From contig DLKT01000008.1 of assembly GCA_002477825.1 (NCBI GenBank), positions 42,659 through 106,658 of the forward strand: a DNA stretch of 64,000 nucleotides. Direction: 5' to 3'. The notes under the pieces are model-generated. The model was given only the letters and a program-made list of their open reading frames with translations. It was not told where the DNA came from and made no database searches. Source of the stretch: Bacillales bacterium UBA7581 (GTDB taxonomy: Bacteria; Bacillota_I; Bacilli_A; RFN20; CAG-826). Shown piece by piece: positions 1-13,329 of this stretch; position 1 is the first letter of the stretch; the number at the start of each line of letters is the position of its first letter. The position numbers and the translations under genes are program-made.

Positions 1-200
1 ATTATATAACTATTTGTTAAAAATAAAATAATTTAATCTATTGTTTTTTACATTAAATTTAATTCGTGTTTTTCAAAGAAAAAATTAGGAATTTTTCATT
101 TTATTTCGTATACGCAATAACTAAAAAATTCCTAAAATAAATTTAAAAAATATAGCATGGGCTCTTTTTTCAAGGTTAAATTGCTTTCCTTGATTTCTAC

Positions 201-334
201 CCATATAATTAAATTACCTCCTTTGGGTGAGATTTTTGTTCCGGGTGGGAACACATTAATCTTACTACATTGGAGTTTTGTCGTACTAAATGCCTGTCTC
301 GACTTTCAAACTGCATTTAGTTTGTCAATTGGGA
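201..334. repeat. Conserved ~134-bp non-coding element, copy 1 (reverse complement of copy 2 at 13040-13173)
   Basis: Manual alignment of the reverse complement of 201-334 to 13040-13173 gives 3 substitutions plus one 1-nt indel. Hairpin arms CTAAATGC/GCATTTAG (286-293/313-320) and GTTCC/GGAAC (238-242/248-252) are intact. Confidence 0.9.
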
Positions 335-411
335 GACTAACCTCATGACTTTACAATACGGAATTGAAATCGTTAAAATCTAAATTTTTATTCATATGAA
401 ATTATAAACTA

Positions 412-420
412 TGCTATAAT
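412..420 (+). promoter_or_regulatory. Extended -10 promoter (TGcTATAAT) for the SRP RNA
   Basis: TGCTATAAT lies at 412-420, 7 nt upstream of the predicted RNA 5' end at G427. Confidence 0.6.
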
Positions 421-426
421 AATAAT

Positions 427-511
427 GCCACCGCGATAGGGCTGGTGTGAACCTGGTCAGGACGGGAACGTAGCAGCCATAAGCATTCAACCTATGTGCG
501 ATGGTTTTTTT
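427..511 (+). ncRNA. ffs: Small (4.5S-type) signal recognition particle RNA
   Basis: Contains the domain IV signature ACCTGGTCAGGaCgGGAAcGtAGCAGCCAtAAG. The 5' GCCACCGCGATAGG pairs with the 3' CCTATGTGCGATGGT. It ends in a T7 run. Confidence 0.85.
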
Positions 512-538
512 ATGAAATAAAAAAGGAGGAATTCATGA

Positions 539-12955: not shown

Positions 12956-13039
12956 GATAGTAGTATTATATCTTCATAAAACTTAAAATGCAATGAAAAA
13001 AAAGCAAAAAAGCGCTTACATGAATTTTTATCTTTTTTC

Positions 13040-13173
13040 CCCCAATTGACAAACTAAATGCAGTTTGAAAGTCGAGACAGGCATTTAGTACGACAAACCT
13101 CCAATGTAGTAAGATTAATGTGTTCCCCACACGGAACAAAAATCTCCCCCAAAGGAGGTAATTTAATTATATG
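13040..13173. repeat. Conserved ~134-bp non-coding element, copy 2
   Basis: Near-identical to the reverse complement of 201-334. Hairpins at 13054-13061/13081-13088 and 13122-13126/13133-13137. ACCTCC (13097-13102) is complementary to GGAGGT (13154-13159). Confidence 0.9.
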
Positions 13174-13329
13174 GCGTTTTATCTTTTTTTGCATGTAAAA
13201 ATGGTATGTTTTTATCAATAATTTAAGAAAAATTTTGACACATGACGAAAAATGACAAGATTTCTTCTGTTGAAATGATTTACTTATTTTACAAAGTAAA
13301 GTATAATTTTATCCCAGGGTGGTGGAAAA

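What the first reader, a model, noticed from the sequence alone, without database searches (positions are those of the whole stretch)
201..334. Unassigned ~134-nt structured non-coding element, copy 1, just upstream of the SRP RNA gene
The reverse complement of 201-334 matches 13040-13173 with only 3 substitutions and one 1-nt indel, while the flanks are unrelated.

Why it is not coding:
- The indel breaks the 63-aa ORF at 157-348.
- No ORF is shared between the copies.

Conserved structure:
- An 8-9 bp hairpin, CTAAATGC-19 nt-GCATTTAG.
- A GTTCC/GGAAC hairpin. Its loop carries 2 of the 4 differences (GGGTG here versus the equivalent of GTGTGG in copy 2) while the stem is untouched.

The two strands give different readings:
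- One strand ends in AAAGGAGGT-11 nt-ATG, and an upstream ACCTCC could sequester that SD. This would be a riboswitch- or leader-like architecture.
- The other strand begins exactly at a conserved TATAAT (204-209, with TTGCTT 17 nt upstream in this copy). It would give a ~115-nt RNA with a 5' CCUCCUUU anti-SD-like tract and a terminal hairpin followed by UUUGU. This would be an sRNA-like architecture.

I could not match it to any riboswitch, ribozyme, 6S, tmRNA, RNase P or T-box pattern I know. The ends are not inverted repeats, so it is not MITE-like.
Basis: seen in the sequence. Interest (0 to 1): 0.7.

Follow-up and report, generated by a model that had tools for sequence, protein, structure and literature searches.

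The report
Leftover ends of an insertion sequence
The two near-identical ~134-nt copies are not a new RNA gene: each is the left end (terminal repeat plus transposase leader) of an IS30-family insertion sequence that has lost its transposase gene, which is ordinary genome debris.

Summary
Window 201-333 (+) is the reverse complement of 13041-13174, with 3 substitutions and 1 indel.

It is not an unassigned RNA gene. A metagenome contig (L022) carries the same sequence at 96-97% identity as the first ~135 nt of a complete 1,635-bp insertion sequence. That IS has perfect 42-bp terminal inverted repeats and a 433-aa transposase.

- **Copy 1 (161-333, minus strand):** keeps the inverted repeat, the leader and the first 15 transposase codons.
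- **Copy 2 (13039-13176, plus strand):** keeps the inverted repeat and leader, joined at ATGG to the last nucleotides (CG) of the right tip. It is flanked by a 13-bp target duplication and is absent from the same site in five other strain contigs.

The hairpins are real too. An anti-SD/SD helix capped by the GTTCC/GGAAC stem is conserved, with compensatory changes, in IS relatives down to 48% transposase identity. It most likely limits transposase translation. The CTAAATGC/GCATTTAG "hairpin" is a repeated subterminal DNA motif.

Both window copies are dead relics lying upstream of their neighbours' predicted promoters. This is a new member of a known kind, of low interest.

The parts
161..333 (-). 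Copy 1: truncated left end of the IS. It comprises the terminal inverted repeat, the 5' leader and the first 15 codons of the transposase gene.
   Evidence: blastn of the L022 IS matches window 332-161 at 97.1% over 174 nt. tblastn matches window 204-160 with 15/15 identical residues, MGRNQGKQFNLEKRA. The alignment with L022 and L045 diverges after ...GAAAAAAGAGC.
294..333 (-). Copy 1: left terminal inverted repeat (IRL, ~40 nt). The outer tip is CCCAATTGACAAAC, with the tip base at 333.
   Evidence: This stretch also matches the right end of the L022 IS in inverted orientation (window 293-332 against IS nt 1597-1636, 95%). L022 itself has a perfect 42-bp TIR (I1).
285..321 (.). The 'hairpin 1' arms ACTAAATGC (285-293) and GCATTTAGT (313-321). 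This is a repeated subterminal motif, probably a transposase-binding site acting at the DNA level.
   Evidence: Six of its nine pairs never vary among 9 IS relatives, so there is no covariation support (helix 1). The motif TGCATTTAGT(T/C)TGTCA recurs several times at the right ends of L022 and L026.
216..276 (-). Long leader hairpin of the transposase mRNA. The anti-SD (CUCC, 275-272) pairs with the SD (GGAG(G), 221-217). The apical stem is GUUCC/GGAAC (252-248 and 242-238).
   Evidence: Single-sequence folds of six IS relatives all give the same three-tier hairpin, with z-scores from -2.6 to -4.9. In the consensus structure, 7 of 22 pairs have compensatory changes, 94% of cells are paired, and 0 of 500 shuffles reach the observed covariation score.
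160..204 (-). Remnant of the transposase gene: the start codon at 204-202 and 15 codons. It then diverges into unrelated sequence; the ORF at 121-204 is a chimaera.
13039..13176 (+). Copy 2: an internally deleted IS. The IRL (13041-13080) and leader run to ATGG (13171-13174), fused to CG (13175-13176), the last nucleotides of the right tip (...TTGGCG in intact copies).
   Evidence: blastn matches window 13042-13174 to IS nt 6-139 at 95.5%. The right tips of L022 and L045 end in ...CAGTTGGCG. The junction was read.
13026..13038 (+). Left copy of the 13-bp target-site duplication, TTTTATCTTTTTT.
   Evidence: Filled versus empty site. Contigs L001, L002, L004, L008 and L009 read GAATTTTTATCTTTTTTTGCATG uninterrupted. 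The window and L003 carry 151 extra nt, made up of the 138-nt element and a second copy of the 13-mer.
13177..13189 (+). Right copy of the 13-bp target-site duplication, TTTTATCTTTTTT.
   Evidence: sequence
334..359 (+). 26 nt of unknown origin between the tip of copy 1 and the surviving 3' end of the ASCH gene.
   Evidence: Homology with strains carrying an intact ASCH gene begins only at about window 360. The 26-mer is found only in the window, L018 and L019.

Best explanation
Both copies are relics of the left end of a ~1.63-kb insertion sequence of the IS30 family. This IS is active in a gut lineage whose proteins cluster with those of Coprobacillus sp. CAG:826.

**Layout of an intact element (shown)**
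- A ~40-bp terminal inverted repeat.
- A ~90-nt leader ending in AAAGGAGG-N11-ATG.
- A 433-aa DDE transposase with an N-terminal HTH.
- About 200 nt of subterminal repeats, then the right inverted repeat.

**How the two window copies arose (inferred)**
- The IS inserts into palindromic or terminator-like targets and duplicates about 12-13 bp.
- Copy 2 arose by such an insertion between the lipoprotein and DegV genes. A ~1.5-kb internal deletion followed, between the TGG of the start codon (ATGG) and the TGG of the right tip (TTGGCG). It left 138 nt between intact target duplications.
- Copy 1 is an IS left end truncated after transposase codon 15. It lies at a strain-specific rearrangement that also removed most of the ASCH gene.

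**What the structure does**
- The long hairpin is part of the transposase mRNA leader. An upstream CCUCC tract pairs with the SD, so translation of the transposase is held down. The conserved fold is shown; the effect on translation is inferred by analogy with IS10/IS50, IS200 and ISPpu9.
- The CTAAATGC/GCATTTAG 'hairpin' is mainly a pair of inverted subterminal DNA motifs of the kind transposases bind (inferred).
- In this window neither copy has a transposase or a second end. Both are immobile and probably neutral.
For: **The element is one end of a complete IS**
- The transposase matches NCBIfam transpos_IS30 over 251 of 267 model positions (E 8.7e-16) and Pfam HTH_38.
- All 13 aligned relatives hit transpos_IS30 (best E 6.9e-25) and HTH_38.
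- The two named homologues in the 5.8-billion-protein search and all 12 listed tblastn hits in plasmids (75 matching records) are annotated IS30 family transposase.

**Mobility and copy number**
- The copy 2 site is empty in five other strain contigs and filled in the window and L003, with a 13-bp direct duplication.
- Related intact ISs have 12-bp duplications: L026 (AAAAAAGCTGCC, one arm of a terminator hairpin) and L037 (AAACGCTTTTTT).
- In sample ERZ808275 the IS assembles as its own 1,634-nt contig at 28x coverage. Four chromosomal contigs at 5.2-5.8x end in its left tip, which suggests about 5 copies per genome.

**The window copies are truncated**
- Copy 1 keeps 15 transposase codons.
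- No other piece of the IS is present in the window.

**Leader structure**
- The leader hairpin is conserved with compensatory changes. G.U pairs lie on the sense strand.

**Precedent**
- IS1630, an IS30-type element, has 16-26-bp duplications and targets inverted repeats (PMC3317919, citing Calcutt 1999).
- 5'UTR structure represses the transposases of IS200 and ISPpu9 (PMC4513863, PMC8450116).
Against: - The transposase scores below NCBIfam's curated cut-off for transpos_IS30 (58 bits against 80). Pfam rve is not detected, so this is a divergent IS30-like clade.
- Target duplications are not uniform. L022 shows only 5 bp (or 2 bp), and L035 shows none that is obvious.
- At copy 2, two nucleotides (CC on the left) lie between the duplication and the recognisable left tip.
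- The deletion route for copy 2 is inferred. No strain with a full IS at that site was recovered.
- The origin of window 1-160 and 334-359 next to copy 1 is unresolved.
- The transposase promoter was not located.
- No expression data exist for either strand.
Confidence: 0.93

Rival explanations
1. It is a miniature non-autonomous transposable element (MITE-like). The ~138-nt form itself is mobilised in trans by the IS30-family transposase, and copy 2 is a fresh insertion of that short form.
For: Copy 2 is flanked by an intact 13-bp target duplication and is polymorphic among strains. Intact IS copies that could supply transposase exist in related metagenomes.
Against: - The short form has only one inverted repeat. 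Its right end keeps at most 5 nt (TGGCG) of the right tip, and DDE transposases of this type need two ends.
- No second site with the same ATATGGCG junction was found in any fetched locus.
- Copy 1 has a different truncation point, inside the transposase gene, so the two copies are independent decay products rather than copies of one short element.
Confidence: 0.04
2. It is an independent cis-regulatory RNA or sRNA gene (riboswitch-like leader or ~115-nt antisense-strand sRNA), duplicated in the genome for a host function.
For: - Both strands fold better than shuffles.
- The structure shows covariation.
- A perfect TATAAT lies on the strand opposite the ATG and is kept in most IS relatives, as ATTATATG.
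- Antisense RNAs opposite transposase leaders are known for IS200 and ISPpu9.
Against: - There is no Rfam match even at E<=10.
- The downstream ORFs differ between the copies.
- Strains of the same species lack copy 2 altogether, and others have an intact ASCH gene where copy 1 sits.
- The sequence is co-linear with an IS end and its transposase gene.
- The covariation comes from IS copies, not from host genes.
- The -35 box is weak and the scan did not flag the promoter.
- G.U pairs favour the transposase-sense strand.
Confidence: 0.02
3. The relics are dead as mobile DNA but have been co-opted. Outward-reading promoter elements (TTGTCA near the tip, TATAAT opposite the ATG) or the inserted 151 bp would alter expression of the lipoprotein, DegV, SRP RNA or tadA genes.
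For: A -35-like TTGTCA near the tip forms a promoter-like site with flanking DNA at 13052-13024 (-). IS ends creating hybrid promoters is a well-known effect (general knowledge).
Against: - The predicted promoters of SRP RNA (391-420) and DegV (13279-13307) lie between the relic and the gene and are untouched. By reading the sequence, the lipoprotein gene likewise has a TTGCAT-17-TATAAT near 12996-12968.
- Strains without the insertions keep identical promoter regions.
- No expression data exist.
Confidence: 0.05

Closest known systems
IS30-family insertion sequences, especially the IS1630 / ISMhom-1 type of Mollicutes
   Same: - A single DDE transposase with an N-terminal HTH_38.
- Terminal inverted repeats of tens of bp.
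- Untranslated regions of about 100-200 nt at both ends. ISMhom-1 has 108 and 140 nt (PMC7648426).
- Insertion into palindromic or terminator-like targets, with unusually long duplications. IS1630 gives 16-26 bp (PMC3317919); this family gives 12-13 bp.
   Different: - The transposase is longer (433 aa) and has a Cys-rich segment between the HTH and the catalytic core.
- It scores below the NCBIfam cut-off and lacks a Pfam rve hit.
- The TIRs are longer (40-43 bp, against 27 bp).
- Identity to annotated IS30 transposases is at most 30%.
- The IS is unnamed as far as these tools show.
Translational repression of transposases by 5'UTR structure (IS200 tnpA leader; ISPpu9; IS10/IS50 fold-back inhibition)
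   Same: The SD is buried in a leader stem-loop. In IS200 and ISPpu9 an antisense RNA is also encoded opposite the leader (PMC4513863, PMC8450116). The IS10/IS50 comparison rests on general knowledge.
   Different: - The IS families and the leader sequences are different.
- Repression here is inferred from conserved pairing, not measured.
- An antisense transcript is only a possibility here.
Solo IS ends and internally deleted IS relics
   Same: One terminal repeat and adjacent non-coding DNA survive, and target duplications are retained around an internally deleted element. Such relics are immobile and polymorphic between strains.
   Different: Nothing of note. This is the category the two window copies belong to.

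Membership tests
IS30 family insertion sequence (tested on the intact relatives; the window copies are fragments of it) | Encodes a DDE transposase homologous to IS30 transposases. | tested here: met
   - NCBIfam transpos_IS30 matches at E 8.7e-16 over model positions 14-264 of 267. All 13 relatives match, with a best E of 6.9e-25.
- The listed plasmid tblastn hits are annotated IS30 family transposase, the best at E 8e-52.
- Invariant D257, D319/D321 and E357 sit in a VENxNxQLRxxFPK context.
- Caveats: the L022 score of 58 bits is below the curated 80-bit cut-off, and Pfam rve is not detected.
IS30 family insertion sequence (tested on the intact relatives; the window copies are fragments of it) | N-terminal helix-turn-helix DNA-binding domain (HTH_38 type). 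| tested here: met
   Pfam HTH_38 matches residues 6-48 at E 5.7e-6. All 13 relatives match.
IS30 family insertion sequence (tested on the intact relatives; the window copies are fragments of it) | Terminal inverted repeats bounding a ~1-2-kb element with a single ORF. | tested here: met
   - L022: 1,635 bp with a perfect 42-bp TIR.
- L026: 1,637 bp. L035: 1,641 bp with a 43-bp TIR. L038: 1,648 bp. L039: 1,649 bp. L040: 1,660 bp.
IS30 family insertion sequence (tested on the intact relatives; the window copies are fragments of it) | Target-site duplication on insertion. It is 2-3 bp in classical IS30 and long and variable in the IS1630 type. | tested here: inconclusive
   - A duplication is shown: 13 bp at window copy 2, by comparison of empty and filled sites, and 12 bp in L026 and L037.
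- L022 has 5 bp or 2 bp, and L035 has none obvious.
- The length differs from classical IS30 and is shorter than in IS1630.
IS30 family insertion sequence (tested on the intact relatives; the window copies are fragments of it) | Copy-out-paste-in transposition through an IR-IR junction (circle or dimer). | not testable with these tools
   This needs junction PCR or long reads. No junction sequence was seen in the fetched contigs.
MITE (miniature inverted-repeat transposable element) | Two terminal inverted repeats on a short non-coding element. | tested here: not met
   Each window copy carries only the left repeat. Copy 2 keeps at most 5 nt of the right tip.
Known RNA families (Rfam 15) | A covariance-model match at or near the gathering score. 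| tested here: not met
   Only the SRP RNA at 420-518 passes in the window. Nothing overlapping the element scores above 16 bits at E<=10.

The most novel reading that the evidence does not exclude
The conserved ~60-nt SD-sequestering hairpin of this IS clade, possibly with an antisense RNA started at the conserved TATAAT opposite the start codon, could be a dedicated riboregulator of transposition not yet in Rfam. It might be temperature- or factor-responsive. The solo relics in this window could still express its antisense or decoy half and so damp transposition of intact copies in trans.
Probability: 0.1. Interest if true: 0.35.

Novelty: new member of a known kind. Interest (0 to 1): 0.1.

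Why it matters
Mostly as a correction. It removes a candidate novel structured RNA next to the SRP RNA gene and replaces it with an annotation: two decayed IS30-family ends.

Three minor points of value follow.
- It documents an unnamed IS30-like clade that is widespread in gut Erysipelotrichales-type genomes. The clade has 12-13-bp target duplications, a preference for palindromic targets and a Cys-rich transposase insert.
- It shows a leader hairpin with good covariation that could be added to RNA-family libraries, so that such IS ends stop appearing as orphan structured elements.
- It marks two strain-polymorphic sites, one linked to loss of the ASCH gene, that are useful as strain markers.

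Tried and rejected
- **Rfam:** the gathering-score search over the whole window and the E<=10 search over 100-420 gave nothing for the element.
- **blastn against plasmid and phage collections:** no match.
- **Exact-pattern scans:** viral contigs gave 0 hits. A gapped two-anchor pattern in GTDB species genomes gave 0 hits.
- **The spurious 63-aa ORF as a handle for other copies:** it is not on record as a gene and has no homologues.
- **Composite transposon or IS-bound prophage (IScream type, PMC12823448) bounded by the two inverted copies:** rejected. The 12.7 kb between them carries SRP RNA, tadA, P-type ATPases and mscL. It is syntenic in a strain contig that has neither copy (L002 and L011 come from one contig).
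- **Inversion between the two copies:** no contig shows the segment inverted.
- **Assembly artefact at the window start:** rejected. The same truncated junction occurs in two other samples, L018 and L019.
- **att site of an integrase-type element:** rejected. The duplicated 13-mer is target DNA present once in empty sites and is unrelated to the flanks of copy 1.
- **Origin of window 1-160 and 334-359:** blast against all fetched loci found nothing.
- **Calcutt 1999 (PMC94219):** could not be read because it is not held.

Full report
**Observation**

The repeat is real. Window 201-333 (+) and 13041-13174 (-) align with 3 substitutions and one 1-nt indel. The flanks are unrelated. A 51-nt core pattern hits only these two places, with none expected by chance. 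The 63-aa ORF at 157-348 is split by the indel in copy 2, and no ORF is shared. Rfam finds only the SRP RNA at 420-518 in the whole window. Nothing meaningful overlaps the element even at E<=10. Both strands fold better than shuffled controls, with z-scores of -3.2 and -3.9.

**First clue: copy 2 is a presence/absence polymorphism**

Contigs from other samples that encode the identical DegV protein fall into two classes.
- L001, L002, L004, L008 and L009 read GAATTTTTATCTTTTTTTGCATG without interruption.
- The window and L003 carry 151 extra nucleotides there. These are a 138-nt element (13039-13176) plus a second copy of TTTTATCTTTTTT (13026-13038 and 13177-13189).

This is the signature of a transposition event with a 13-bp target-site duplication. 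Three further contigs (L005-L007) end inside the element, as assemblies do at multi-copy repeats.

**Second clue: copy 1 sits at a strain-specific rearrangement**

In most strains an ASCH-domain gene ends 37 nt upstream of the SRP RNA gene. In the window, L018 and L019, homology stops at about position 360. Only the last 24 nt of ASCH survive, and everything to the left, including copy 1, is different DNA. The same junction occurs in three samples, so it is not an assembly artefact.

**Identification**

A gapped-pattern scan of JGI metagenome contigs returned five loci. Four are contig ends from one sample. The fifth, L022, contains the element internally.

L022 holds a complete 1,635-bp insertion sequence (259-1893) with perfect 42-bp terminal inverted repeats.
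- Window copy 1 matches its nt 6-179 at 97%. This includes the first 15 transposase codons, MGRNQGKQFNLEKRA (window 204-160).
- Copy 2 matches nt 6-139 at 95.5%.
- No other part of the IS is present in the window.

Several lines place the transposase in the IS30 family.
- It matches NCBIfam transpos_IS30 (E 8.7e-16, 251 of 267 model positions) and Pfam HTH_38.
- All 13 aligned relatives do the same, with a best E of 6.9e-25.
- Invariant D, D and E residues sit in a VENxNxQLRxxFPK context.
- All 12 listed tblastn hits in plasmids (75 matching records) are annotated 'IS30 family transposase'.
- Two homologues in the 5.8-billion-protein search are named IS30 family transposase by JGI.

There are caveats. 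The L022 score is below NCBIfam's curated cut-off, and Pfam rve is not detected. This is a divergent IS30-like clade.

**Family properties**

Intact relatives with 42-86% transposase identity were recovered from MAGs and metagenomes. One is an uncultured Coprobacillus MAG (L026) and another an Erysipelotrichaceae MAG (L035).
- They are 1.63-1.66 kb long with 40-43-bp TIRs.
- The tips read (C)GCCAACTGACAAACTAAATGC.
- The leader is about 130 nt.
- The motif TGCATTTAGT(T/C)TGTCA recurs near both ends.

Target duplications are as follows.
- 12 bp in L026 (AAAAAAGCTGCC, one arm of a terminator hairpin).
- 12 bp in L037 (AAACGCTTTTTT).
- 13 bp at window copy 2.
- 5 bp or 2 bp in L022, and none obvious in L035.

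The copy 2 target lies in the loop of TTACATG-N19-CATGTAA. Long, variable duplications at inverted-repeat targets are the published hallmark of the IS30-type element IS1630. It gives 16-26 bp (PMC3317919, citing Calcutt et al. 1999).

In sample ERZ808275 the IS assembled as a separate 1,634-nt contig at 28x coverage. The four chromosomal contigs that end in its left tip have 5.2-5.8x. This suggests about five copies per genome.

**How the two window copies arose (inferred)**

Intact copies end on the right in ...CAGTTGGCG. Copy 2 ends in ...ATTATATGG-CG, followed immediately by the duplicated target. It is best read as a full insertion that then lost about 1.5 kb. The deletion ran between the TGG of the start codon and the TGG of the right tip. 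Copy 1 was cut at a different point, after codon 15, so the two are independent decay products. Each keeps one inverted repeat and no transposase. Neither can move.

**The structures**

I aligned nine left ends, whose transposases are 48-100% identical to L022's. RNAalifold predicts three helices.
- **Helix 1 (ACUAAAUGC/GCAUUUAGU):** six of its nine pairs never vary. It offers no covariation evidence, and its arms are copies of the subterminal DNA motif.
- **Helix 2 (anti-SD with SD) and helix 3 (GUUCC/GGAAC):** these vary and stay paired.

Over all 22 pairs, 94% of cells are paired and 7 pairs show changes on both sides. None of 500 column shuffles reaches the observed covariation score. Sliding the partners drops pairing to 36-46%.

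Six leaders folded one by one all give the same three-tier hairpin with the SD at its 3' base. Free energies range from -16 to -33 kcal/mol and z-scores from -2.6 to -4.9. Ten G.U cells occur on the transposase-sense strand. Only one C.A cell would be G.U on the other strand. The folded molecule is therefore most likely the transposase mRNA leader.

The likely function is to limit transposase translation. This has been demonstrated for 5'UTR structures of IS200 and ISPpu9 (PMC4513863, PMC8450116). For IS10/IS50 fold-back inhibition I rely on general knowledge. It is inferred here, not shown.

Its -35 (TTGCTT) lies in codons 7-9 and exists only in copy 1 and in intact copies. The consensus scan does not flag it. 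An antisense RNA of the art200/Asr9 kind remains possible but has no support here.

**Consequences in this window**

The predicted promoters of SRP RNA (391-420) and DegV (13279-13307) lie between each relic and its neighbour and are intact. By my reading of the sequence, the same holds for the lipoprotein gene (about 12996-12968). Strains without the relics have the same promoter regions. The 12.7 kb between the copies is housekeeping DNA. It is syntenic in a strain contig that has neither copy. It is therefore neither a composite transposon nor an IS-bound prophage. The host belongs to the 'Coprobacillus sp. CAG:826' group, judged from protein clusters at 90% identity or more.

**Verdict**

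The interpretation as an unassigned structured RNA is replaced by 'two decayed left ends of an IS30-family insertion sequence'. The leader-like reading was right in form, but it is the leader of a transposase gene that is no longer there. This is a new member of a known kind, of low interest. The residual novelty is the well-supported leader hairpin of this IS clade and its 12-13-bp target duplications.

Noticed in passing
window 360-383 (+), compared with L011 9510-9845: Only the last 24 nt of an ASCH-domain gene survive upstream of the SRP RNA gene. Strains without copy 1 have the full 111-aa gene, preceded by serS. The window lineage lost the gene in a rearrangement next to the IS relic.
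   Followed up: partly
window 1-160 and L018 1-245: The DNA left of copy 1 is found in no other fetched locus. It contains a 12-bp-stem hairpin, TTAGGAATTTTT...AAAAATTCCTAA (about window 85-134). In L018, further left and on the minus strand, there is a 31-codon hydrophobic ORF with a lysine-rich tail (MIEFITAILGLAAAILKVVGLLLSKKKKKDK, GTG start). It resembles type I toxin or holin-like peptides.
   Followed up: no
L022 391-1692 (transposase residues ~60-125); alignment A6: The transposases of this IS clade carry a Cys-rich segment between the HTH and the catalytic core. Four of its cysteines (C103, C113, C116, C122) are invariant, and the consensus reads CxxC...CNGCxKExxCP. The proteins are 433 aa long, which is long for IS30-type transposases. 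This may be a zinc-binding insert.
   Followed up: no
one search hit list (for example P0013 with 678 member sequences and P0077 with 268): Relatives of this transposase are very abundant in public gut metagenomes. Nearly all sit on ~1.6-kb contigs, which are collapsed multi-copy IS assemblies. Most carry no functional name, and NCBI labels one only as 'helix-turn-helix domain-containing protein'.
   Followed up: partly
window 420-518 (+): Bacterial small SRP RNA (Rfam RF00169, 59.8 bits) with its own promoter-like site at 391-420. It is followed by tadA at 539-1012.
   Followed up: yes
L026 4507-4540; L037 2870-2890; window 13014-13045: The insertion targets of this IS family are palindromic. 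They are a terminator hairpin (GCTGCC-TTCT-GGCAGC), the run A6CGCT6, and TTACATG-N19-CATGTAA. The duplicated segment covers one arm or the loop.
   Followed up: partly
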